Below the pieces are notes generated by a model, which saw only the letters and a list, made by a program, of their open reading frames with translations, was not told where the DNA came from and did not search any database. Below are positions 5,186-42,830 of a stretch of DNA of 64,000 bases, piece by piece. A program made the position numbers and the translations under genes. Origin of the DNA: Chitinivibrionales bacterium (GTDB taxonomy: Bacteria; Fibrobacterota; Chitinivibrionia; Chitinivibrionales; WJKA01); the NCBI GenBank assembly GCA_014728215.1, contig WJLZ01000080.1, positions 8,755-72,754 of the forward strand, written 5' to 3'. Every line of letters starts with the position of its first letter. Positions within the stretch are counted from its first letter, which is position 1.

Positions 5186-5220
5186 TTGTGTGCATGATGT
5201 TTCTTTGAAGGAGGAGTTTA

Positions 5221-6483
5221 TTGAAAACCACTATTGAAAAACCCGAATCATGGAAAAGAATCCTGGATATAGAAGTGCCTGAAGATGAAATCGACAGCGC
5301 TTTTTCGGAAAAACTGGGAAACTACAAAAAGCAGGTAAAGCTTCCCGGGTTTCGAAAAGGAAAAGTTCCTCCCCATATTTTAAAGTCGAAATACGGTGAT
5401 GCAATCCGTGCCGAGGTGATAGAAAGTCTCATACAGAAATCATTTGAACAGGCCTGTCGGGAACATGAACTTACTCCGATAAGTCAGGGTAAGATCAACA
5501 AAATGAATACCGAAGAAGGCACTCCGCTTTCCTTTTCCATTGAAATGGAAGTCGATCCGGAAATACAAATCAAGGGATATGAAAAACTCAAGGTTAAAGT
5601 TTCGCCGAAAAAGATAAAGAAAGTGGATGTTGATGAAGCCATTACCAATCTTCAGGAACGGCTTGCGGAATTCGAGGATGTTGATCGGGAGTCGAAAAAA
5701 GGAGATTTTGTCACGATTGAATACGAACGGGTTGAAGTTGATGGAGAAGAGAAACCCGAAGTGACCAGTCCCCAGTATCCGATCGAGATTGGCGCCAGCC
5801 AGATCAAGGAATTTGATAAAGGCTTAACCGGATTACGCGCAGGAGACACCGCCGATATCACCGTCAAATTTCCATCCGACTATGGCGATCCCGAACTTGC
5901 AGGGAAAACCGGTAAAATGTCGGTAAAGGTGAATAAAGTCCAGGAACGAAAGCTTCCGGAGATCAATGAAGAATTTCTGAAAAAAGTGGGCGATTTTGCC
6001 GATGAGGAGGCACTTCGGGAAGCGATCCGCAACGACCTTCAGCAACGGGAAAATGAACGGGCGCGTAATGAAGCCTATAACAAAGCGATCGATACACTCA
6101 TCGATAAAAATCCCTTTGATGTACCTCCCTCGCGAGTCGAGCATTATATCGACCATGTTTATGAGGAGGCTAAGCAATACGCGGCTCAGGGAAGGCCTGT
6201 TCCTTCCCGAGAAGAAATCGAATCCCGCTACCGGGAATCGGCGGTCAAGGCGCTTAAACGGTACCGTATCATCGATTATATTGCAAAGAAAGAAAATATC
6301 AAGGCTACTCAGGAAGAGGTGGATGCCGAAATACAGAAGATCGCCGATCAGTATAATCAACCTTTCGATCAGATAAAACAGGTCTTTCGGCAGAACGGAA
6401 CAACCAACCGGATCCGGAACGATATCCGGGAACTCAAAACGCTCACATTACTTGTAAAAGACATTGAGCCGGATTCACAATAA
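5221..6483 (+). CDS. tig: Trigger factor
   Basis: PGFRKGKVP ribosome-binding motif and FKBP domain. TTG start after GGAGGAG; upstream of clpP-clpX. Confidence 0.97.
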   Translation: MKTTIEKPESWKRILDIEVPEDEIDSAFSEKLGNYKKQVKLPGFRKGKVPPHILKSKYGDAIRAEVIESLIQKSFEQACREHELTPISQGKINKMNTEEGTPLSFSIEMEVDPEIQIKGYEKLKVKVSPKKIKKVDVDEAITNLQERLAEFEDVDRESKKGDFVTIEYERVEVDGEEKPEVTSPQYPIEIGASQIKEFDKGLTGLRAGDTADITVKFPSDYGDPELAGKTGKMSVKVNKVQERKLPEINEEFLKKVGDFADEEALREAIRNDLQQRENERARNEAYNKAIDTLIDKNPFDVPPSRVEHYIDHVYEEAKQYAAQGRPVPSREEIESRYRESAVKALKRYRIIDYIAKKENIKATQEEVDAEIQKIADQYNQPFDQIKQVFRQNGTTNRIRNDIRELKTLTLLVKDIEPDSQ

Positions 6484-6537
6484 ACAACACTTTCAAGCGA
6501 AAAGAAATAAGGAAATCTATAACGAAAGGAAAAATAT

Positions 6538-7122
6538 ATGTCACTCATACCAATGGTAATTGAACAGACCGGACGAGGTGAGCGGTCGTATGATATCTAT
6601 TCCCGCTTGCTGAAAGAGCGGATCATTTTCTTGGGAAGTGAAATCACCGATCCGATTGCCGATTTGCTTATGGCACAGCTTGTTTTTCTGGAATATGAAG
6701 ATGCCGATAAGGATATTACAATTTATATCAATTCTCCCGGCGGGTATGTGTCTTCCGGATTAGCGATTTATGATACCATGCAGTATATCAAACCTGATGT
6801 CTGCACGATTTGTATCGGTCAGGCATCCAGTATGGGAGCAGTACTACTTGCCGCCGGCACCAAGGGAAAACGGTATGCGCTGCCCCATTCCCGGGTCATG
6901 CTCCATCAGCCCCTGGGCGGCGGTGGCGGACAGGCATCCGACCTTGCAATTCATGCCCGAGAAATTGTCCGGATAAAAGAAACAATCAACAATATCCTCG
7001 TCAACCATACTGCACAGAAAATCGATGTAATCCAGAAAGATACGGACCGTCATTTTTATATGGACGCAAACGAGGCAAAAGAGTATGGTATAATAGATGA
7101 GATTCTTTCATCCCGGGAATAA
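6538..7122 (+). CDS. clpP: ATP-dependent Clp protease proteolytic subunit
   Basis: [28 protein letters not shown] (catalytic Ser), MLHQP. Confidence 0.98.
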
Positions 7123-28261: not shown

Positions 28262-28633
28262 TTAATCCCCAAGAATAGACTGCACTGTTTTTATTATATC
28301 ATCTTTGTCAAAAGGTTTTGGTATAACATCATTAAAGCCCAGAGTCATAAGACTTTTAACAGGATTTTTTTCGATAAATGACGTTAATGCGATGACTGGA
28401 ATCGATCGGGTCTCCGTCCCTTTTTTCAGGCGATTTATAAATCGTATGCCGTCCATAACCGGCATCATGATATCGGTAATGATAAGGTCGGGCATATGTT
28501 CCTGTGCGCAGTTGAGCCCGTCAAAACCGTTCAAGGCTGTGATGACTTCATATTTTCTGAACAGAACCACTTCGATAAGATCGAGTGTATCGTGGTCGTC
28601 ATCAACAACAAGGATTTTTTTCTTATTGCTCAT
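28262..28633 (-). CDS. Single-domain response regulator
   Basis: ILVVDDD, LIITDIMMPVMDG, PVIALTS, IPKPF. Confidence 0.93.
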   Translation of the reverse strand: MSNKKKILVVDDDHDTLDLIEVVLFRKYEVITALNGFDGLNCAQEHMPDLIITDIMMPVMDGIRFINRLKKGTETRSIPVIALTSFIEKNPVKSLMTLGFNDVIPKPFDKDDIIKTVQSILGD

Positions 28634-31218
28634 GCATCGCTCTTTCTATACAGCAGAATGCCCAGGAGTAAAAAGATGGCATTTCCCAGCCAGGCGCCGG
28701 CTAAAGGAGGAAGCTGCCCGCTTTTACCAAAAGCCAGGGCAAAGCGCACAATTATCCAGTAGGAAAAAACGATCAGTAACCCTATACCGAAAAGGAGCGC
28801 TCCGCCGCCTTTACCAATTCGCGCAGTTACCGAAATTCCCAGCAGAATGACGATAAAATTCATGAAGGGGTAGGCAATTTTGAAATAGAGATCGGTATTG
28901 TATTTCAGTACCTTCTCACCCCGGCGTCTGGTCTTTTTAATATAATCTTTCAATTCCCAGTAGCTCATTTCTTCCGGAGTCTTGATTCGTACCACCATTT
29001 CTTCGGGAGTGGCATTCAGAATATTGTCCTGAAGGGTATCGAAGGTCATCATGGTTGATGAATCACCCTGAAATTTTCTGATTGTCCCGTTAATAAAAGA
29101 CCAGGCATTGTTGTGATAAACGGATTTTTCGGCATGAATTCGTTGCGTAATCGAATTACCTTCAAATGTTTCTCTCCAGACATTTTTCGCTTTTTGTGGA
29201 AATGTTCTGAATTCCTGAAAACAGTAGATTGTGTTTTTATTGCCGAAATAGTAGAAATTTCTCCGAAAATCTCTCCGTCCGCGGTACACTTTACCCTCAG
29301 CGGCTTTTTCCTGCATTTTAATTTCTTCGAGAAGCTCCCGTCGTTTGACATTTGCTTCCGGAAGAACCAATTCACTGACATAGAAGTTTGCGCCAACAAG
29401 ACAGAGCCCTAAAAACAGGAGAGGAAGGGTTACGCGGCGGATGCTTTTCCCTGCCGCTTTCATGGCAATCAGCTCACTGTTTTTGGCCAGTTTACCCATG
29501 GCGAACATGGAAGAGAGTAGCATGACAACCGGAAAAACGAGTTGTATGATCCAGGGCATGTAATACCAGTAGAAAAGAGCGGTCTGCTGAACCGGAACGC
29601 CTTCAAAACGTCGGGAATTCGAAACATAATCGACCACAACGAAAACCACCATAATTGCAGCAAAAACACCCACCATGTTCCCGACAAAAAGGCGGATTAT
29701 ATAATTGGGAAGGATGCCGATAACATAGCGAATGGCGATAAGCGGTAAAGAGATTATTTTCATGGGCAGACCCAGAACAAAGCGTACGGTTTTAAAAAAG
29801 ACGTTTTGCTTTTCTCCGGCCTCGGTGAACTTATGCCACCACCGTAAAAGGGGTGTCCAGGAGATGAATGTCGTCTCGCGGACCATGCGGATGATCAGAA
29901 AGGCACCGCAGGCGCCCAGAAGGATATTTCCCGACCACATGGCGCTGAAAGGTGACACCACGAGGCGGTCGGCAAGGTTTTCTCCCTTTATCAAAAAGGC
30001 CCAATAGAGGATAAAAAAGAAAATGCTGTAACTTACGGCAACGGTCATTCCACCCCGCCGTGCCATAATGCCGAGGGGAGCACCGATAAGAACAAAGATA
30101 ATGCAGGCAAACGGTATTGCGTATTTTTTATGAATTTCGACCAGATACTGGGCTATTCTTTTCTTTTCACTTTCTATACGGCGAATGATTCGTTCACTCT
30201 CGCGGACAGTACGGTTTTGCGCTACCATTGCATTGCCCCGGGCAGGGGTAAACTGCTTTGCCCAATGCTGAAATGACAGAAGGGAATCCGGGCTGGTGGT
30301 TTGTCGGCCGGATGGTGCCGGGTGGGCGGCCGACAGACTGTCAAAAAAAGCAACAACGGCAAGCGTGGAATCGATCATGCCCGAATGCTGCGCCAGATGG
30401 CCTTTCTTTTTCTTGCGGTTCTGTTTAATATCGTTGAGCATCATCTGGGAGCTTTTTTCACGGTCCCCCCGGTATCTGCTGTCTGTTCTATGAAGGTCAC
30501 TGTCGACATTATTGATAAACAGCACCTGTTTATCAAAATGGCCTACAAAATGCTGTTCCCTGTTGTCACTGCTTATACTGTGGGTCTCGCCGTGATAGAG
30601 TGTCAGACGCAAATAGGCGCCGTCGACGGTTTGTTTAACTTCTCCGGAGTCGGCGATGGTTGTTGAAGGATCTTCACCGGGAACATCGGAAAAAATCTTG
30701 ATGCCTTCCAGCCTTCCGGTCCGGCCGTTGGCCTTCTTCACATAGATTGCGTAATTCTCGAAATCTTTAATTAATACTTTAGGTTCGATAAATGCAGCAG
30801 GTCGTTTCCGTGAAATATCCGACATCAGATTTGCCGTCCGATGGTTGGCGTCGGGAAGAATCAGATTGTTGAAAAAAATCAGGCATATACAGACAACCGA
30901 TGCGGATACAATGACCGGGGCAATCAGATGATAGAGATTGAGTCCTGATGCTTTGATTGCCAGAATTTCGTTATCCGCCGACATTCTCCCAAAGGCCCAG
31001 AGCGTGGCACTGAGGATCGCCATAGGAATTGCCAGCGCAATAATCCATCCAAGATTAATAGCAAAAATTTCAAGAACAATGGCGGCATCAAGGCCCTGAG
31101 AAATAATCTTGTCAAGAATCTGAATCGCATACTGCATTATAAAGATAAAGACAAGAATTGCCAGGGAAAAAAAGAAGGGGAAGATATGTTCTTTAACGAC
31201 GTGACGGTAGAGAATCAT
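28630..31218 (-). CDS. lptF-lptG: LptF-LptG fusion: LPS export ABC transporter permeases in one polypeptide
   Basis: 862 aa uninterrupted ORF with two YjgP/YjgQ units: NEILAIKASG...EIHKKYAIPFAC...GAPLG, then NSELIAMKAAG...SYWEL...KIAYPF...LLGISV. Confidence 0.88.
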   Translation of the reverse strand: MILYRHVVKEHIFPFFFSLAILVFIFIMQYAIQILDKIISQGLDAAIVLEIFAINLGWIIALAIPMAILSATLWAFGRMSADNEILAIKASGLNLYHLIAPVIVSASVVCICLIFFNNLILPDANHRTANLMSDISRKRPAAFIEPKVLIKDFENYAIYVKKANGRTGRLEGIKIFSDVPGEDPSTTIADSGEVKQTVDGAYLRLTLYHGETHSISSDNREQHFVGHFDKQVLFINNVDSDLHRTDSRYRGDREKSSQMMLNDIKQNRKKKKGHLAQHSGMIDSTLAVVAFFDSLSAAHPAPSGRQTTSPDSLLSFQHWAKQFTPARGNAMVAQNRTVRESERIIRRIESEKKRIAQYLVEIHKKYAIPFACIIFVLIGAPLGIMARRGGMTVAVSYSIFFFILYWAFLIKGENLADRLVVSPFSAMWSGNILLGACGAFLIIRMVRETTFISWTPLLRWWHKFTEAGEKQNVFFKTVRFVLGLPMKIISLPLIAIRYVIGILPNYIIRLFVGNMVGVFAAIMVVFVVVDYVSNSRRFEGVPVQQTALFYWYYMPWIIQLVFPVVMLLSSMFAMGKLAKNSELIAMKAAGKSIRRVTLPLLFLGLCLVGANFYVSELVLPEANVKRRELLEEIKMQEKAAEGKVYRGRRDFRRNFYYFGNKNTIYCFQEFRTFPQKAKNVWRETFEGNSITQRIHAEKSVYHNNAWSFINGTIRKFQGDSSTMMTFDTLQDNILNATPEEMVVRIKTPEEMSYWELKDYIKKTRRRGEKVLKYNTDLYFKIAYPFMNFIVILLGISVTARIGKGGGALLFGIGLLIVFSYWIIVRFALAFGKSGQLPPLAGAWLGNAIFLLLGILLYRKSDA

Positions 31219-33782: not shown

Positions 33783-33989
33783 ATGCAGGAATCACCAGGT
33801 AATAAGAATTCCCAAAGAGAACGGCGACCATTTATCGGCATTCATTTTACGTGCTGTAATGCCTACAACAGGATTTACAAAAACAAAGAGGGAACAGCCT
33901 ATGAGGGGAGTTGTCCCCGGTGTGGGAAACTGGTCCGGGTACCGATCGGTGAAGGCGGTACCGGTGAACGATTTTTTGTCGCCCATTAA
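33783..33989 (+). CDS. Small conserved hypothetical Cys-rich (zinc-ribbon-like) protein
   Basis: 68 aa: RPFIGIHFTCCNAYNRIY...YEGSCPRCGK...GGTGERFF; packed between nadD and amrS. Confidence 0.75.
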   Translation: MQESPGNKNSQRERRPFIGIHFTCCNAYNRIYKNKEGTAYEGSCPRCGKLVRVPIGEGGTGERFFVAH

Positions 33990-34089
33990 ATGGTTTGTAA
34001 ATTTCTGTCTCTCCCCGTTCAAAAAATCATTTGCCGGTTGGACTTATGAATCGAAACATGCTCCGGTTTCATTAATTTATTTTTTTATT

Positions 34090-35181
34090 ATGGCAACACG
34101 CAGAGAAGCTTTAAGAAATGGTCTTGGATTGGCCTGCGCCTTCACGGCGCCTTCGTGTATGGCCGGGAAATCCTCTGTCCCGCATATGGCGATGCATTGG
34201 CAGCCCTTCGGTGATATGGTACAATGTGAGCTGTGTCCCCATGAATGTACACTCGAAAATGGGAAAACCGGTATCTGCCGGGTAAGAAAGAATAAAAACG
34301 GCACACTGGTTACTCTCGGCTATGCTAATCCCTGTGCCGTGCATGTCGATCCTATAGAAAAAAAACCGCTTTACCATGTTCTGCCGGGAGCGCGGGCCTA
34401 TTCGGTCGCTATTGCAGGATGTAATTTCCGATGCAAGAACTGTCAGAACTGGACTATTTCACAGCAGAGTCCGCTGGAGACACGGAATGAACATCTTCCT
34501 CCTCAGAAACTGGTCGAAGAAGCTGTTCGTCGTAAATGCACCGCAATTGCCTACACCTATTCGGAACCGGTCGTCTGGTACGAATGGATGTACGATTGTG
34601 CAAAACTTGCCCGTCAAGCCGGCCTTAAAAACCTCATGATCACTTGTGGATATGTCAATGAAGCACCGCTTCGTCAATTGGCGCAATACATGGACGCCGC
34701 GAATGTCGATCTGAAAAGCTTTGATGATTCGATTTACCGGAAACTCAATGCCGGACGGTTGCAGCCGATTCTCGACACACTGAAACTCGCGAAAAAACTC
34801 GGGATATGGGTCGAAATAACCAATTTAATCGTTCCGCAATGGACCGATGATCCCGCGATGATCGGAAAAATGTGCGATTGGATAACCGCAAATCTGGGTG
34901 ATGACGTACCGCTCCATTTTTCCCGGTTCAGCCCGATGCATAAGCTGGCCCATCTCAGTCCCACACCGGTCGAGACGCTTATGAATGCAAAGGCTGTCGC
35001 CGGTAAAGAGGGATTGAAACATGTGTATGTCGGCAATGTGGCCGTTGATACCAATACCTATTGCCCATCATGTAAAAAAGCGGTCGTGGTACGGCAGGGA
35101 TATCTGGTGAAAGACGTTTCGATCAAAAACGGCGCTTGCAGCGCCTGTGGCGCCGAAATAAGCGGCATCTGGACCATGTAA
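34090..35181 (+). CDS. amrS: AmmeMemoRadiSam system radical SAM enzyme with twin-arginine-like leader
   Basis: CELCPHEC, VDPIEKKPLYH, CNFRCKNCQN (CxxxCxxC), AYTYSEP, AANVDLKSF, PLHFSRF. ATG at 34090 gives MATRREALR; the ORF-track extension to 33859 overlaps the upstream gene. Confidence 0.92.
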   Translation: MATRREALRNGLGLACAFTAPSCMAGKSSVPHMAMHWQPFGDMVQCELCPHECTLENGKTGICRVRKNKNGTLVTLGYANPCAVHVDPIEKKPLYHVLPGARAYSVAIAGCNFRCKNCQNWTISQQSPLETRNEHLPPQKLVEEAVRRKCTAIAYTYSEPVVWYEWMYDCAKLARQAGLKNLMITCGYVNEAPLRQLAQYMDAANVDLKSFDDSIYRKLNAGRLQPILDTLKLAKKLGIWVEITNLIVPQWTDDPAMIGKMCDWITANLGDDVPLHFSRFSPMHKLAHLSPTPVETLMNAKAVAGKEGLKHVYVGNVAVDTNTYCPSCKKAVVVRQGYLVKDVSIKNGACSACGAEISGIWTM

Positions 35182-35222
35182 CAGTAGTGTATTACCAGGG
35201 TATGTTTTGTAAAGAGGTTGGT

Positions 35223-36698
35223 ATGGCCCGAGCGCATAAACTCCACTCTGTTTATCTCAAACTTACAGGAGTACTGCTCATGAGTATGCTTAATTGTGAA
35301 TCTTCACCTGCAGAAGAATCTGTTCGGAAAGCTGTTTTTGCCGGATCGTGGTATGAAGGCGATCCTCAGGCATTACGACACAGTATCGAAAATTATATTA
35401 CCAGTCAAGCCGGAGTGCGGTCTTCGCCGCGGCTGCTTATCAGCCCCCATGCCGGGCACCCCTTTTCGGGACCGGTTGCGGGGAAGGGATATGGCACCAT
35501 GAACAGAGACATAAAAACCGTCATCCTCCTCGGACCGTCACACCGGGTAATGGTGCAAGGCGTCTCTATTCCCGATGTCGATTACTACGAAACGCCTCTG
35601 GGGAAAATACCACTGGATAAAAATATTATTTCGGAACTCCGGAAACACCCAATGGTAGGATCGAACACGCGCGCCCATTCTCAGGAGCATTGCCTGGAAA
35701 TTCAACTCCCCTTCCTCCAGACCGCTATTGATTCCTTTACCCTTGTGCCCATGCTGATGAGCAATGTGGATCCGGAAGCGATCGCCGGATATATCAGGCC
35801 CTATGTCGATGAAACAACACTGGTTGTGGCTTCGTCGGACTTCGCCCATGTCAATAGTGCAGATCAATGCAAAAAGCTGGATAAGCGGTCGATCGAAACA
35901 ATTATGGATCAGGATCCGAACGGCTTTATTGAGGCCTGCGGTGAAACGCCGATACGGGTGCTGCTCTATCTCTCAAAGCACCTTGGTTTGAAACCGATAG
36001 TGCTTGATGCCCGCAATTCGCAGGAGATTGTCAATGCTCCGGAAAGCGGGTATACCGTCGGATATGCTTCAATCGTCTTTGTAAAAAAGGATGAAAACGG
36101 TGGAACGTCCGAAGACAAAGAAAAAAGAGAAAATGAGTCTATCGTTAAAGAGCTGGATGGCGGTGATAAAGCATTTCTGCTCAATCTGGCCCGGAGAGCA
36201 TTTGAAGCCGCAGTTAAGGGTGCGCCGCCCCCCGAGCCGTCCGATATTCCCGACGTAGCGAAGCAGGATGTTGGTTGCTTTGTAACCCTCCATAAGCATG
36301 GCGAACTTCGTGGCTGTATCGGTTATATTGAAGGCATTAAACCGTTGTATGAGGCAATAATTGACAATGCAAAAAATGCCGCACTGAGGGACCATCGCTT
36401 TCGACCGGTCCGCCCGGAGGAGCTCGACGAAATCAAGGTAGAAGTTTCTGTATTGACAAGGCCGGACCCTGTGTCCTACAATGATCCAAGTGAGCTCCTT
36501 AATAAAATCGTCGCCGGCAAGGATGGCATAATACTGAACAAGGGGGGGCATCAGTCAACCTACCTTCCTCAGGTATGGGAGCAGATCCCGGATAAAAAGA
36601 CCTTCCTTGAATATCTTTCCCGCAAAGCCGGCATGCCGTCGGATGGATGGAAAACGGCGGAGGTAAAGCGGTATCGTGCGATTCATTTTGAGGAATAG
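35223..36698 (+). CDS. amrB-amrA: AmmeMemoRadiSam protein B (MEMO1) - protein A (AMMECR1) fusion with lipoprotein-like signal
   Basis: MEMO motifs AGSWY, SPHAG, GPSH, EHCLE, SSDFAH, DACG-like EACG, VGYAS; then AMMECR1 GCFVTL, LRGCIG, EVSVL, TYLPQVWEQ. ATG at 35223 follows AGAGG. Confidence 0.92.
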   Translation: MARAHKLHSVYLKLTGVLLMSMLNCESSPAEESVRKAVFAGSWYEGDPQALRHSIENYITSQAGVRSSPRLLISPHAGHPFSGPVAGKGYGTMNRDIKTVILLGPSHRVMVQGVSIPDVDYYETPLGKIPLDKNIISELRKHPMVGSNTRAHSQEHCLEIQLPFLQTAIDSFTLVPMLMSNVDPEAIAGYIRPYVDETTLVVASSDFAHVNSADQCKKLDKRSIETIMDQDPNGFIEACGETPIRVLLYLSKHLGLKPIVLDARNSQEIVNAPESGYTVGYASIVFVKKDENGGTSEDKEKRENESIVKELDGGDKAFLLNLARRAFEAAVKGAPPPEPSDIPDVAKQDVGCFVTLHKHGELRGCIGYIEGIKPLYEAIIDNAKNAALRDHRFRPVRPEELDEIKVEVSVLTRPDPVSYNDPSELLNKIVAGKDGIILNKGGHQSTYLPQVWEQIPDKKTFLEYLSRKAGMPSDGWKTAEVKRYRAIHFEE

Positions 36699-38631
36699 CG
36701 CTCATCCCCACTCTTTTATTTTTGTTACCGGCTTCTGCAGTATCGGAGTTCAGTGCCTTTTTATACGGGAGGCACTGGCCGTATTTTACGGCAATGAGCT
36801 GATCCTCGGTCTGGTGCTTTCGACCTGGCTTCTCTGTTCAGGTATCGGCAGTTTTATCGGCGCCAAATCGCCAAAATGGGATACCTGGGGTGTCGTGACT
36901 GTTTATGTCTGGGCTGCTGTTGGCGGTATTCTCCTGCTGCGCGCCGGAAGGCTTCTTTTCTCGCCGGGAGAAATTATTTCACCCCTTGCTTCACTGGGTA
37001 TTCTCTCCGTAAGTCAGGGGCCATTTGCCTTTGTTAATGGTTATGTTTTCGGCCGCCTTTCGCAGGCCCGGCATACCGCACCGCATCTTTATCGATACGA
37101 AAACATGGGCAACATCGCCGGCTCGTTGATCGTTTTTCTGGGGGTTGTCCTTTTCTGGAAAAATGCCCTGATCCTTATCGCACTTCTTGTTCCGGTTTTA
37201 TGGCTCTGCAAAAAGAAACCGTGGCTGTTTGCAATCATTGGCGGCGCCTTTGTTTGTATTGCCCTGTTTGATAGTATATCACAGGAATGGAAATATGATG
37301 TCCCCGTTACGAGGATATCCTGCGGCAGGGAGGGCGAGGTTGTCCTTACCGAGCAGCACGGCGATACTGCATGGCTGCTCAACAATACACTGTACCGCTC
37401 TTCTGCCGATGACGCCTTTATCGAGCAGGCAGTGCATATTCCCATGGCGCAGAGGGAGCACGCTCGCCGGGTGCTGGTTATTTTCGATAAAGGGCATTAT
37501 GATGAACTGAAGGCCTACAATCAAAGTGAGGTGGACATAATTGAAACCGAACGGCTCCTTGCACGTAAAGGAAGTATTGTTACTTCACCGGAATCTCATG
37601 CGGCCGGAGGAAAATATGATGTGATTCTTATGGCAGCGGGCATGCCGGAGACCATGGGGAGCAGCAGATTTTATACACAATCCTATTTTACCCGAATGAA
37701 ATCGCTCCTCAGTGATTCCGGAGTCTTTTCGTTCAGCCTTTCCCTCAGCAGTAATTATCTTAACAGGCCGGAGCAGGAAATCGTGCACGTTCTTCACTCG
37801 ACCCTGAATGAAGTATTTAATCGGGTCCTGATTTTTCCCGGTGAGGGATATACCTTTATGGCTTCGGACAGCGCTTTAAAGGCTCGTCCTGAGCTTATGG
37901 TCCAAACACAATTTGTGGGTCCTTATATTATGCCCGCGCTTTCGGATGAAAGAATCGAAAGTGCAAATACATTTTCCGGGAAAGCAACAATAAGCACCAT
38001 CGACAAGCCTGTTGTTCTTATCGCAGGACTTCAACGGTGGATGAAACTGATCGAAGCTCCCGTATGGGGGCTTTTGATAATCCTCGCCCTGGTCATTATT
38101 GCTGGGGTCGCTTTCTTTCCCAAAAAAGGCGAAATGCTTTCCGTAGGATCGAGCGGGTTTACCGCCGGTATCTTTTCGGTGGCCCTTCTTTTGCTCTACC
38201 AGGCAGGATACGGAGCGCTCTACTCACGCATATCGCTGCTGCTCCTGGCACTTACCCTGGGATTTGCCCTGGGAAGTTATGTGCGGAAATTTCCCCATTC
38301 CGATGGAGTTATTGCGGTGTATGTGGTTGTATCGATGGCTCTGTTGACAAAGTGTACGGCCGCTCCGCAACTGCTCTTTTATCTTTTGCACGGGGGCATA
38401 GGATTTTTGTGCGGCGCCCAGTTTGTGACCCGGAAAAACAGTGAAACCGGTATACTCTATGCTGTTGATCTTTTCGGTGGCGTCATCGGTATGGTGTTGT
38501 CTTCTACTGTGCTGGTCCCCATGTTCGGGGTGATGAATGTTGCGCTTGGTCTGGGAGCGGTGAAACTGCTGGTGTGGGGAGCGAATACTCGTTCAATAAA
38601 CCGGGGGCGTCTTTCCACGGGCATGATATGA
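36676..38631 (+). CDS. Polytopic membrane protein with central degenerate spermidine-synthase-like domain
   Basis: N-terminal TMs (QCLFIREAL...GNELILG, YRYENMGNIAGS), central SpeE-like fold (EQAVHIP...RRVLVI...YDVIL...RFYTQSYF...GVF), C-terminal TMs (LYAVDLFGG). GTG start overlaps the amrB-amrA stop. Confidence 0.8.
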   Translation: MRFILRNSAHPHSFIFVTGFCSIGVQCLFIREALAVFYGNELILGLVLSTWLLCSGIGSFIGAKSPKWDTWGVVTVYVWAAVGGILLLRAGRLLFSPGEIISPLASLGILSVSQGPFAFVNGYVFGRLSQARHTAPHLYRYENMGNIAGSLIVFLGVVLFWKNALILIALLVPVLWLCKKKPWLFAIIGGAFVCIALFDSISQEWKYDVPVTRISCGREGEVVLTEQHGDTAWLLNNTLYRSSADDAFIEQAVHIPMAQREHARRVLVIFDKGHYDELKAYNQSEVDIIETERLLARKGSIVTSPESHAAGGKYDVILMAAGMPETMGSSRFYTQSYFTRMKSLLSDSGVFSFSLSLSSNYLNRPEQEIVHVLHSTLNEVFNRVLIFPGEGYTFMASDSALKARPELMVQTQFVGPYIMPALSDERIESANTFSGKATISTIDKPVVLIAGLQRWMKLIEAPVWGLLIILALVIIAGVAFFPKKGEMLSVGSSGFTAGIFSVALLLLYQAGYGALYSRISLLLLALTLGFALGSYVRKFPHSDGVIAVYVVVSMALLTKCTAAPQLLFYLLHGGIGFLCGAQFVTRKNSETGILYAVDLFGGVIGMVLSSTVLVPMFGVMNVALGLGAVKLLVWGANTRSINRGRLSTGMI

Positions 38632-41822: not shown

Positions 41823-42830
41823 TTAAAGAATAATCCCCGTATCAACTCCGCACTTCGGACAACAAGCCCTTTTGTTCCCAGTGGCTGCCCCAAGCTTTTC
41901 GTGGATTTTAGTAAAATATCCGTTACGATCGATCAGAAGAGTGTTGCATGATGGGCACCTGGTGTTGGAGCAATCACCAGACTCCATATTGCCGATAAAA
42001 ACATAATTGAGATACTCTTTTGCAATTTCCCATGCCGTCTTAACTGTTTCTTCGGGTGTGGCCGGATTGTTACTTTTATATCGTGGGAAATACCGGGACA
42101 GGTGAAGTGGCGTATCCTTGCCCAGATTTTGTGCAATATACCGGGCCAGTGCACTAAAATCTTTTTCGGTATCATTTTCGCCGGTAACGACCAGATTGGT
42201 AATTTCCAAATGTGCATGCTTTTTGACTTTTTCGCAACTTGCCAGAACGGGCTCAAGTTTTCCTTTGCAGAGATGGGTATAAAATTCCGGACGCATTGAT
42301 TTGATATCGATATTCATGGCGTCGACAACATTCAAAAGCTCATCAAGCGGTTTCTGCTCCATGAAACCGTTGGTGACCATGACGTTTTTCAACCCCCGCG
42401 CCTTTATTTCAGCGCCGATATTCATGATTGTCTCGAACCAGATAAAGGGCTCTGAATAGGTGTAAGCGATACCCATGCTGCTGCTGGAACAGACTTTTTC
42501 GATTATCGCATCTTCAGGAAACTTCCGAACAGGAAGGGTATCCTGGGAAATCTCGAAATTCTGGCAGAACGAGCATTTGAGTGTACATCCATTTGGTCCG
42601 GTCGAGAAAATTGAAGAACCGGGATAAAAGTGATACAAGGGTTTCTTTTCGACAGGATCAACGGCCAGAGATACAGGCCTGCAGTAATTGAGTGAATAAA
42701 GAATACCGTCCCTGTTCTGCCGGGTCAGGCAGACACCTCGTTTGCCGTCGGTTAATAAGCAGTGATGGGGACAGAGTTCGCACCGAACCTTTTTATCGTC
42801 GAGTGGGGTAGAGTAGGATGCCTTTTTCAT
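41823..42830 (-). CDS. amrS: Second AmmeMemoRadiSam radical SAM enzyme (no leader)
   Basis: CELCPHHC, VDPVEKKPLYHF, CTLKCSFCQN, AYTYSEP, AMNIDIK, PLHLSRYFP. Confidence 0.93.
   Translation of the reverse strand: MKKASYSTPLDDKKVRCELCPHHCLLTDGKRGVCLTRQNRDGILYSLNYCRPVSLAVDPVEKKPLYHFYPGSSIFSTGPNGCTLKCSFCQNFEISQDTLPVRKFPEDAIIEKVCSSSSMGIAYTYSEPFIWFETIMNIGAEIKARGLKNVMVTNGFMEQKPLDELLNVVDAMNIDIKSMRPEFYTHLCKGKLEPVLASCEKVKKHAHLEITNLVVTGENDTEKDFSALARYIAQNLGKDTPLHLSRYFPRYKSNNPATPEETVKTAWEIAKEYLNYVFIGNMESGDCSNTRCPSCNTLLIDRNGYFTKIHEKLGAATGNKRACCPKCGVDTGIIL

What the first reader, a model, noticed from the sequence alone, without database searches (positions are those of the whole stretch)
34090..38631. Apparently exported AmmeMemoRadiSam module: Tat-like radical SAM + lipoprotein-like MEMO1-AMMECR1 fusion + membrane SpeE-fold partner
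Seen: amrS begins MATRREALRNGLGLACAFTAPSCMAG, a ~30-aa leader absent from the paralog at 41823-42830. amrB and amrA are fused and begin MARAHKLHSVYLKLTGVLLMSMLNC. The next gene overlaps their stop and is a polytopic membrane protein with a SAM-binding-type fold. Established: the radical SAM/MEMO1/AMMECR1 trio (TIGR04335-04337) has no known substrate, and radical SAM enzymes need SAM, an Fe-S cluster and a reductant, normally in the cytoplasm. Inference: this copy acts in the periplasm or at the membrane, with the membrane protein supplying or handling SAM or a substrate. That would be unusual extracytoplasmic radical chemistry, perhaps envelope or glycan modification. Caveat: TRREALR deviates from the S/T-R-R-x-F-L-K consensus and the h-region is short.
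Basis: partly seen in the sequence, partly recalled or inferred. Interest (0 to 1): 0.82.

Follow-up and report, generated by a model that had tools for sequence, protein, structure and literature searches.

The report
Export-signal-bearing radical SAM/Memo/AMMECR1 module
Three neighbouring genes encode the enigmatic radical SAM / Memo / AMMECR1 enzyme trio plus a transporter-like membrane protein, and each carries conserved signals placing its working part outside the inner membrane, where radical SAM chemistry has never been shown.

Summary
AmrS (34090-35181) passes TIGR04337 and has a 36-residue N-terminal extension, MATRREALRNGLGLACAFTAPSCMAG. AmrB-AmrA (35223-36698) is a fusion with a hydrophobic leader. 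The overlapping gene (36676-38631) is a 14-helix MFS-like protein with an inserted spermidine-synthase fold.

The leaders are real and conserved:
- 96 of 104 full-length AmrS homologs keep an RR or KR motif, and the RR codons differ synonymously between relatives.
- 63 of 65 long AmrB-A N-termini are strongly hydrophobic.
- The positive-inside rule puts the SpeE-like domain on the periplasmic side.

Across 80 loci from many phyla, leader type follows phylogeny and the export machinery present. TatC occurs in 43 of 46 genomes with RR/KR leaders but in 3 of 14 with Sec-type leaders. One clade encodes the RR leader as a separate mini-ORF. One Bacteroidota clade lost the AmrS leader, the AmrB-A signal and the membrane gene together.

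Export targeting is therefore well supported. Catalysis outside the cytoplasm, SAM supply and lipoprotein status are not shown. In this lineage the SpeE-like domain has lost its glycine-rich nucleotide loop, and generic Tat HMMs do not score the window's own leader. Earlier notes of this scan describe the same theme in at least 55 genomes. I found no published description.

The parts
34090..35181 (+). amrS: AmmeMemoRadiSam radical SAM enzyme with an N-terminal Tat-type leader
   Evidence: TIGR04337 355.6 bits against a cut-off of 220; PF04055. Closest solved relative is PFL-activating enzyme 3c8f, E 3e-6.
34090..34167 (+). AmrS leader MATRREALRNGLGLACAFTAPSCMAG: n-region with the twin arginines (R4 and R5 at 34099-34104), a weakly hydrophobic h-region, then C-M-A
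   Evidence: 96 of 104 full-length homologs have an RR or KR motif, 50 fit [ST]RRx[FLIVM][LIVM][KRQ], and 58 have a Cys 12-28 aa after it. RR codons vary synonymously. No hit to TIGR01409 or PF10518 for this copy.
34225..34278 (+). N-terminal four-Cys motif C46, C49, C53, C63 (CELCPHEC...C), a likely auxiliary metal or cluster site
   Evidence: Invariant in alignment A1; positions.
34420..34443 (+). Radical SAM cluster motif CNFRCKNC (C111, C115, C118)
   Evidence: Invariant in A1.
35062..35148 (+). C-terminal CxxC...CxxC pair (C325, C328, C350, C353)
   Evidence: Invariant in A1.
35223..36698 (+). amrB-amrA fusion: Memo-like domain (35325-36080) plus AMMECR1 domain (36174-36689, LRGCIG motif at residue 362)
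   Evidence: TIGR04336 218 bits, TIGR04335 199 bits, PF01875, PF01871. It is the only AmrA/AmrB copy in the genome.
35223..35297 (+). AmrB-A leader MARAHKLHSVYLKLTGVLLMSMLNC: a Sec-type signal; cleavage by SPase I or II is undecided
   Evidence: 63 of 65 homologs with at least 26 aa before the Memo domain have an h-region (mean Kyte-Doolittle hydropathy (KD) 2.51, against 1.63 for AmrS leaders). 31 have a Cys just after it and only 1 has an RR motif. The motif ..GVLIMSLFNC.. is conserved.
36676..38631 (+). SpeEm: MFS-like membrane protein (7 helices, 36706-37296; 6-7 helices, 38062-38616) with an inserted spermidine-synthase-fold domain (37297-38061) predicted to face the periplasm
   Evidence: AF2 model pLDDT 83. 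Foldseek finds aminopropyltransferases and MFS transporters. K+R is about 16 on one side and about 2 on the other across 29 homologs. Homologs pass NF037959. The G-rich loop is lost in this lineage.
33783..33989 (+). Conserved 68-aa Cys-rich (zinc-ribbon-like) ORF between nadD and amrS; its membership in the module is uncertain
   Evidence: Orthologs lie at the same place in L083 and L087. No Pfam or NCBIfam hit.
41823..42830 (-). Leaderless AmrS paralog, used for comparison; not part of the module
   Evidence: TIGR04337 295.5 bits with the match from residue 5. It is a long-branch outgroup in the tree.

Best explanation
This is an extracytoplasmic version of the AmmeMemoRadiSam system.

Proposed mechanism:
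1. AmrS folds and receives its iron-sulfur clusters in the cytoplasm. It is then exported folded through the Tat pathway by its twin-arginine leader.
2. The AmrB-AmrA (Memo-AMMECR1) fusion is exported by Sec and stays at or near the membrane.
3. The third protein is an MFS-type transporter scaffold. It holds a spermidine-synthase-fold domain on the periplasmic face.
4. The three act together on the outer face of the inner membrane on an unknown small-molecule or envelope substrate.

What is shown: the leaders, their conservation, their co-variation with each other and with the host's export machinery, and the outward topology prediction.

What is inferred: that export really happens, that AmrS is catalytically active outside, and how it gets SAM and electrons. 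I see two workable routes. SAM may be carried out bound to the folded enzyme and used catalytically, regenerated each turnover as in lysine 2,3-aminomutase. Or a cosubstrate may be delivered through the MFS-like protein.
For: - Family membership and leaders.
- RR/KR motif in 96 of 104 homologs; h-region less hydrophobic than in AmrB-A (KD 1.63 against 2.51), as expected for Tat against Sec.
- Synonymous variation of the RR codons and a conserved ATG.
- Own genome has TatC and about 12-15 ordinary Tat substrates. These include the NiFe hydrogenase small subunit, a superoxide dismutase, sulfatases and RR-plus-Cys leaders such as 'LSRREALH...FFPGC'.
- 80 loci across phyla: AmrB-A, SpeEm and AmrS are the only conserved gene families.
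- SpeEm lies within 7 kb of most leader-bearing AmrS and of almost no truly leaderless one.
- Leader type is clustered on the tree: 6 changes against 26.8 in shuffles.
- A Paludibacteraceae clade lost the AmrS leader, the AmrB-A signal and SpeEm together.
- A clade of 'leaderless' AmrS has a 44-62 aa RR mini-ORF just after amrS. It carries the leader plus the KEA[RM]F[YW] strand.
- TatC is present in 43 of 46 genomes with RR/KR leaders, 7 of 7 with split leaders, and only 3 of 14 with Sec/TM-type leaders. Fisher p = 3e-7, not corrected for phylogeny.
- A DsbD_2 membrane redox protein sits in 8 of the Sec-type loci.
- SpeE-like domain is on the K/R-poor side: about 16 against about 2. It is inserted after helix 7 of an MFS-like fold.
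Against: - No experiment exists. SignalP and TatP could not be run.
- TIGR01409 and PF10518 give no hit on the window's own leader. They pass or nearly pass only on some orthologs.
- SAM and a low-potential reductant are not known in the periplasm. No electron-transfer gene lies in this operon, and no DsbD_2 homolog is in this genome.
- The SpeE-like domain of this lineage lacks the G-rich nucleotide loop.
- Sec-type leaders in Omnitrophota and Planctomycetota would require Fe-S cluster assembly outside the cytoplasm, which is unknown.
- Four Bacteroidota loci (L018, L019, L052, L056) have a leaderless AmrS, and three of them (L018, L019, L052) pair it with a signal-bearing AmrB-A; no AmrB-A was found within L056. 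This is unexplained.
- The TatC contrast is confounded by phylogeny and MAG incompleteness.
Confidence: 0.6

Rival explanations
1. The leader is a membrane tether or a vestigial Tat motif (as in NarG). It holds AmrS on the cytoplasmic face next to the membrane protein. Radical SAM chemistry stays in the cytoplasm, and only AmrB-A is outside.
For: Radical SAM enzymes need SAM and a reductant, both known only in the cytoplasm (established knowledge). Generic TAT HMMs do not score the window's leader. Some lineages pair a leaderless AmrS with an exported AmrB-A, so the two need not share a compartment.
Against: The leader has a full n/h/c architecture. In other lineages it is swapped for canonical Sec signal peptides with AXA sites or a lipobox, which would translocate the domain. 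Leader type follows the presence of TatC. Most 'leaderless' cases have a separate RR mini-ORF. The partner domains are predicted outside.
Confidence: 0.15
2. Export is real, but the radical step is not sustained outside. AmrS uses its SAM once, either before export or on a single periplasmic target such as AmrB-A. Alternatively it serves outside as an Fe-S or binding protein rather than a multi-turnover radical enzyme.
For: AmrS is closest to glycyl-radical activases, which act once on a protein partner. Tat exports cofactor-loaded proteins (established knowledge). No SAM or electron supply is encoded in this operon, and the SpeE-like G-loop is lost here.
Against: The CX3CX2C motif and all eight accessory Cys are invariant in exported forms. 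In other lineages redox partners sit beside the module: DsbD_2 and a NapH/NosR-like protein. This suggests continued electron demand outside.
Confidence: 0.15
3. Artefact: the true starts lie downstream, and the 'leaders' are untranslated or chance sequence.
For: No Shine-Dalgarno sequence precedes 34090. In-frame ATGs exist at residues 24, 32 and 34. Public gene calls for these proteins disagree on starts.
Against: The leader is conserved at protein level in over 90% of homologs, with synonymous codon changes. The AmrB-A leader motif is conserved, and short calls start inside it. The leader co-varies with TatC and with the partner genes.
Confidence: 0.03

Closest known systems
Canonical AmmeMemoRadiSam system (NCBIfam TIGR04335 AmrA, TIGR04336 AmrB, TIGR04337 AmrS)
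   Same: All three family models are passed well above cut-off. The genes are adjacent. The CX3CX2C motif and the AMMECR1 LRGCIG motif are present.
   Different: The canonical proteins start at the catalytic domain and have no leader, like the paralog at 41823-42830. Here AmrS has a Tat-type leader, AmrB-A a Sec-type leader, and a third conserved partner (MFS plus SpeE-fold protein) is added. AmrB and AmrA are fused.
Pyruvate formate-lyase activating enzyme (PDB 3c8f, 3cb8) and other glycyl-radical activases
   Same: Closest solved relative of the AmrS core (E 3e-6). Secondary NCBIfam hits to PFLA and activases.
   Different: PFL-AE is cytoplasmic, about 245 aa, and lacks the N-terminal four-Cys motif, the C-terminal CxxC pairs and any leader. 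No glycyl-radical enzyme is nearby.
Tat-exported iron-sulfur proteins (NiFe hydrogenase small subunit, Rieske protein)
   Same: An RR leader on a protein that must bind Fe-S clusters before export. An archaeal ortholog's leader scores on the Rieske Tat-signal model PF10399 (E 5e-5) and passes TIGR01409. The genome's own hydrogenase small subunit has an RR leader ending in Cys.
   Different: Those are electron-transfer proteins. No radical SAM enzyme is known among Tat substrates (own knowledge; nothing found).
Radical SAM maturases of exported proteins (anSME for sulfatases; HXS antiphage system, PMC13128918)
   Same: They link radical SAM chemistry to an exported protein.
   Different: In those systems the radical SAM enzyme stays in the cytoplasm and its substrate is exported afterwards (HXS: abstract; anSME: own knowledge). 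Here the radical SAM enzyme itself carries the export signal.
Fused MFS/spermidine synthase (NCBIfam NF037959) and membrane 'polyamine aminopropyltransferase' PRK03612
   Same: Homologs of the third gene pass NF037959 and align to PRK03612 over 400 residues. The window protein has the same fold.
   Different: The window protein scores only 27-28 bits on SpeE models. It has a second helix bundle after the domain. In this lineage it has lost the GGxxG loop and about 15 residues. Neither family has a tested function, as far as I know.

Membership tests
AmmeMemoRadiSam system | Radical SAM enzyme passing TIGR04337 with a CX3CX2C motif | tested here: met
   355.6 bits against 220; CNFRCKNC at residues 111-118.
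AmmeMemoRadiSam system | Memo-like AmrB (TIGR04336) and AMMECR1-like AmrA (TIGR04335) encoded with it | tested here: met
   218.2 bits against 26, and 199.4 bits against 99, in one fused ORF 41 nt downstream of amrS.
Tat substrates | Twin-arginine motif in the n-region followed by an uncharged h-region | tested here: met
   T-R-R-E-A-L-R, then NGLGLACAFTAPS. RR/KR in 96 of 104 homologs and the strict consensus in 50.
Tat substrates | Recognised by curated Tat-signal models (TIGR01409, PF10518) | tested here: inconclusive
   No hit for the window's leader. Ortholog L002 scores 26.3 bits against 16.7; another ortholog scores 15.8 and 16.4 bits, just under the cut-offs.
Tat substrates | Tat translocase present in the genome | tested here: met
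   TatC 204.7 bits on C87; other plausible Tat substrates.
Tat substrates | Export depends on Tat and on the RR pair | not testable with these tools
   Needs reporter fusions or fractionation.
Bacterial lipoproteins | Lipobox [LVI][ASTVI][GAS]C at the end of the h-region | tested here: not met
   AmrB-A has M-L-N-C (Asn at -1). AmrS has A-P-S-C (Ala at -3, Pro at -2). Lipoproteins of this genome use LAGC, LTGC, FAGC and ITSC. The Cys is conserved in 31 of 65 and 58 of 96 homologs, but C-x-[AS] also fits an SPase I site.
Polyamine aminopropyltransferase (SpeE) | Passes TIGR00417 / PRK00811 / PRK03612 cut-offs | tested here: not met
   27-28 bits against cut-offs of 250-472.
Polyamine aminopropyltransferase (SpeE) | Glycine-rich dcSAM-binding loop (GGGDGG-like) | tested here: not met
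   VLVIFD--KGHYDE replaces VLLISGGxxG, and about 15 residues are deleted. This is shared by five Fibrobacterota-lineage orthologs.
Polyamine aminopropyltransferase (SpeE) | SpeE fold (N-terminal beta-hairpin domain plus Rossmann domain) | tested here: met
   Foldseek hits 1uir, 7xih, 3anx, 6bq2 at E 1e-7 to 1e-5.
Fused MFS/spermidine synthase (NF037959) | Passes the NF037959 cut-off (40 bits) | tested here: not met
   No NF037959 hit for the window protein. Homologs L007, L002, L049 and L005 pass with 50-67 bits. MFS transporters appear among the fold matches.

The most novel reading that the evidence does not exclude
A multi-phylum clade of AmmeMemoRadiSam systems, this one included, carries out genuine multi-turnover radical SAM chemistry outside the cytoplasmic membrane. 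The Fe-S enzyme is exported by Tat, or by Sec where Tat is absent. A dedicated MFS/SpeE-fold protein delivers or presents the cosubstrate or substrate. This would be the first extracytoplasmic radical SAM enzyme system.
Probability: 0.2. Interest if true: 0.92.

Novelty: new variant of a known kind. Interest (0 to 1): 0.72.

Why it matters
Radical SAM enzymes are regarded as strictly cytoplasmic. They need SAM, an oxygen-labile [4Fe-4S] cluster and a low-potential reductant. A large, conserved clade whose members carry export signals matched to the host's export machinery challenges that view. It raises concrete questions: how SAM and electrons reach the periplasm, and whether Fe-S clusters can be assembled there in lineages that use Sec-type leaders.

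It also gives a new handle on the AMMECR1/Memo/radical SAM trio, which has human homologs and no known reaction. In this clade the substrate must be something available at the outer face of the inner membrane. A transporter-like partner is genetically tied to it. The claims are cheap to test with standard leader-reporter and topology fusions.

Tried and rejected
- Polyamine link. In relative L082 the module is interleaved with carboxynorspermidine dehydrogenase and decarboxylase genes and lies beside speD-speE-ODC-speE. Five other related contigs and the 80 loci do not repeat this. I treat it as local synteny.
- Extra conserved partners. All-against-all clustering of ORFs in the 80 loci found only AmrS, AmrB-A and SpeEm as widely conserved families.
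- DsbD_2 in this genome. tblastn found none.
- Electron conduit near the genome's Tat-signal DUF362-like gene. Its contig (C42) is only 4 kb.
- Generic TAT HMMs on the window's leader gave no hit.
- Transcript or read evidence for the start codon. No public run holds the stretch.
- Literature. Six papers mention AmmeMemoRadiSam only in passing. Searches for radical SAM with twin-arginine or Tat signal found no exported radical SAM enzyme. Burroughs et al. 2019 (J Biol Chem 294:10211, PMC6664185) describes Memo-AMMECR1-radical SAM gene contexts, but it is not held. I cannot exclude that it mentions secreted or membrane-linked versions.
- The long ORF from 33859 as the AmrS start. It is rejected because it overlaps the conserved small ORF in another frame, and relatives align only from the ATG at 34090.
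Full report
**What is in the window.**
- ORF listing and family scans confirm three co-directional genes.
- amrS (34090-35181) scores 355.6 bits on TIGR04337. The match begins only at residue 37.
- The paralog at 41823-42830 matches from residue 5 and has no extension.
- amrB-amrA (35223-36698) is one ORF. TIGR04336 covers residues 35-286 and TIGR04335 covers residues 318-489. A good AAGAGG ribosome-binding site precedes it.
- The third gene (36676-38631) starts with GTG, 23 nt before the AmrB-A stop. On SpeE models it scores only about 28 bits.
- The genome holds no other AmrA or AmrB copy. It has two further complete AmrS paralogs, both leaderless, and a partial AmrS-like match on C79.

**Are the leaders translated and conserved?**
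- The ORF can be extended upstream to 33859. That stretch overlaps a conserved 68-aa Cys-rich ORF in another frame (33783-33989).
- Relatives L083 and L087 align with the window only from the ATG at 34090.
- The two arginine codons differ synonymously in the three genomes: CGC AGA, CGA CGG, AGA AGA.
- Among the 119 best database homologs, 104 have a full N-terminus. Of these, 96 carry an RR (93) or KR (3) motif followed by an h-region. Fifty fit [ST]RRx[FLIVM][LIVM][KRQ]. Fifty-eight have a Cys 12-28 residues later.
- R4 and R5 are at least 90% conserved in alignment A1.
- For AmrB-A, 63 of 65 homologs with at least 26 residues before the Memo domain have a strongly hydrophobic segment. Their mean Kyte-Doolittle hydropathy (KD) is 2.51, against 1.63 for the AmrS leaders. 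That is the expected Sec-against-Tat difference. Only one has an RR motif.
- Many shorter public gene calls begin at a Met inside the conserved '..GVLIMSLFNC..' segment. These starts are probably mis-called.

**Can the host use a Tat leader?**
- The genome encodes TatC (204.7 bits).
- A motif census found about a dozen ordinary-looking Tat substrates. They include a NiFe hydrogenase small subunit, a superoxide dismutase, three sulfatases and several RR leaders ending in a lipobox Cys. One reads LSRREALH..., the same 'RREAL' variant as AmrS.
- Curated Tat-signal HMMs do not score the window's leader. They pass on the archaeal ortholog (TIGR01409, 26.3 bits against 16.7) and fall just short on another ortholog.
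- SignalP and TatP were not available.

**The membrane protein.**
- I built an alignment of 29 homologs from related loci. The AlphaFold2 model has pLDDT 83 and pTM 0.87.
- The model shows seven helices, a beta-rich Rossmann domain at residues 208-462, then six or seven more helices.
- Foldseek matches the middle domain to aminopropyltransferases (1uir, 7xih, 3anx, 6bq2; E 1e-7 to 1e-5). It matches the helices to MFS transporters such as POT, SV2A, EfpA and NorA.
- Homologs from other phyla pass NF037959 'fused MFS/spermidine synthase' and align with PRK03612.
- Counting Lys and Arg over the 29 sequences gives about 16 on the loops of one side and about 2 on the other. The SpeE-like domain lies on the K/R-poor side, which is the periplasmic side by the positive-inside rule.
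- In the window protein and four relatives of its lineage the glycine-rich loop (VLLISGGxxG) is replaced by VLVIFD--KGH. About 15 residues after strand 2 are missing. Other SpeE-type positions remain: E250, H254, E277, E290, D315, P324, R331.
- The fold is therefore right, but canonical SAM or dcSAM binding is doubtful in this lineage.

**Comparative test.**
- A scan of one genome per species returned 80 loci from Bacteroidota, Ignavibacteriota, Thermodesulfobacteriota, Verrucomicrobiota, Planctomycetota, Omnitrophota, Nitrospirota, Chlamydiota, Aenigmatarchaeota and others.
- The only gene families shared widely among them are AmrS (80 loci), AmrB-A (45) and SpeEm (43). The usual order is amrBA-speEm-amrS.
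- AmrS N-termini fall into four classes:
  - RR or KR Tat-like leaders, about 46 loci. Bacteroidales mostly use S-K-R-[DE]-F-[IL]-K.
  - Sec-type signal peptides, lipoprotein signals or single anchors, 14 loci, mostly Omnitrophota.
  - 'Leaderless' genes followed by a 44-62 aa mini-ORF. The mini-ORF encodes an RR leader plus the KEA[RM]F[YW] strand that normally precedes the first Cys motif. These are L032, L044, L054, L067, L068 and L076. L071 has an upstream piece in another frame.
  - Truly leaderless genes.
- On a maximum-likelihood tree the leader type is strongly clustered. Tat needs 6 changes, against 26.8 in shuffles (0 of 500 as low).
- The leaderless Paludibacteraceae clade of seven is nested among leader-bearing Bacteroidota. 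AmrB-A was seen in six of its seven loci and lacks a signal in all six, by my reading of the N-termini (the automatic classifier scored five; L027 I re-read by hand). No SpeEm lies nearby.
- The three export features are thus lost together.

**Leader type against export machinery.**
- TatC was found in 43 of 46 genomes with RR/KR leaders.
- It was found in 7 of 7 genomes with split leaders and in 11 of 11 leaderless ones.
- It was found in only 3 of 14 genomes with Sec/TM-type leaders. Fisher p = 3e-7.
- The test is not corrected for phylogeny or MAG completeness. Still, it is the pattern expected if these N-termini are working export signals that adapt to the pathway available.
- Eight of the Sec-type loci also carry a DsbD_2 (PF13386) membrane protein in the operon. 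None is detectable in this genome.

**Close relatives.**
- L083 (76% identical AmrS, same genus) and L087 keep the window's order: YfiO, NadD, small ORF, AmrS, AmrB-A, SpeEm.
- L085 and L086 have unfused AmrB and AmrA.
- L082 and L084 place a DUF2809 gene after amrS and move amrBA-speEm a few genes away.
- In the same order, 8 of the 11 top-scoring AmrS copies I could read, the window's included, carry the RR leader.

**Interpretation.**
- Three independent kinds of signal agree that the globular parts of all three proteins face the periplasm. They are a Tat motif, a Sec-type signal and membrane topology.
- The features appear, change type and disappear together across phyla.
- I therefore put about 0.6 on a truly extracytoplasmic module.
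- What happens there is inference. The operon encodes no electron donor, and the SpeE-like nucleotide loop is degraded here.
- For this copy I therefore favour SAM being carried out bound to the folded enzyme, used either catalytically or once, over continuous SAM supply by the membrane protein.
- Main rivals: a cytoplasmic-face tether (0.15); real export without sustained radical turnover (0.15); a start-codon artefact (0.03).

**Known or new?**
- The trio is a curated but uncharacterised system. Its closest solved relatives are PFL-AE, MEMO1 and the archaeal AMMECR1 homologs.
- Literature searches found no exported radical SAM enzyme. They found only systems where a cytoplasmic radical SAM enzyme matures a protein that is later exported, such as HXS (PMC13128918).
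- The one paper likely to discuss Memo-AMMECR1 gene contexts could not be read.
- Earlier AI notes of this scan report the same theme in at least 55 genomes. I treated them as leads only. I tested the split RR mini-ORF and saw the DUF362 association on my own loci. The outward-facing MFS/SpeE protein and the DsbD_2 association I had found before reading them.
- This window is therefore one more member of a recurring, apparently unpublished variant. It is not a unique oddity.

Noticed in passing
window 33783-33989 (+): A conserved 68-aa Cys-rich ORF (..[29 protein letters not shown]..) lies between nadD and amrS. Orthologs sit at the same place in L083 (2553-2759) and L087 (7800-7994). It has no Pfam or NCBIfam hit. 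It is unclear whether it belongs to the module.
   Followed up: partly
window 33901-35181 and 35202-36698 (public gene calls P0001, P0121): The deposited proteins for this contig start upstream of the starts I use: 426 aa from MRGVVPG.. and 498 aa from MFCKEVGM... The AmrS call puts the RR motif at about residue 67, where signal predictors would miss it. In homologs, 53 of 118 AmrB-A calls are instead too short, and many of these start inside the h-region.
   Followed up: partly
L032 4813-4947; L044 8008-8160; L054 8097-8243; L067 7957-8124; L068 5373-5561; L076 7939-8151: Unannotated 44-62 aa ORFs lie directly after leaderless amrS genes. Each encodes a canonical RR leader plus the strand that normally precedes the AmrS Cys motif. 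This looks like a split leader, possibly for hitchhiker export. All seven genomes of this class (these six loci and L071) have TatC.
   Followed up: yes
L005, L008, L010, L038, L041, L048, L064, L070: A DsbD_2 (PF13386) membrane thiol-redox protein sits in the operon of Omnitrophota and Planctomycetota versions whose AmrS has a Sec-type leader. Most of these genomes lack TatC.
   Followed up: partly
L061, L066, L072, L075, L080 (about 1 kb upstream of amrS); L082 14621-15095; own genome contig C42: A Tat-signal DUF362-like protein accompanies one well-supported clade of RR-leader AmrS that has no AmrB-A nearby. The window's genome has a similar RR-leader protein (MRKARREFLQTVAGG...VLIKPN) on a 4-kb contig.
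   Followed up: partly
L082 1069-4825 and 8597-11086: In one Chitinivibrionales relative the module is interleaved with carboxynorspermidine-type genes and lies next to speD-speE-ODC-speE. Other relatives do not repeat this.
   Followed up: partly
L004-L047 (Bacteroidales loci): Bacteroidales AmrS leaders almost always read S/N-K-R-[DE]-F-[IL]-K, with Lys-Arg instead of Arg-Arg, yet their genomes have TatC.
   Followed up: no
window 28630-31218 (-): A single 862-aa ORF appears to join two LptF/LptG-type permease units. Another reader also noted it.
   Followed up: no
L044 about 5203-6600 (+): A 466-aa membrane protein with two ferredoxin-type CxxCxxCxxxCP motifs (NapH/NosR-like) lies just upstream of the split-leader amrS in a Planctomycetales genome.
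   Followed up: no
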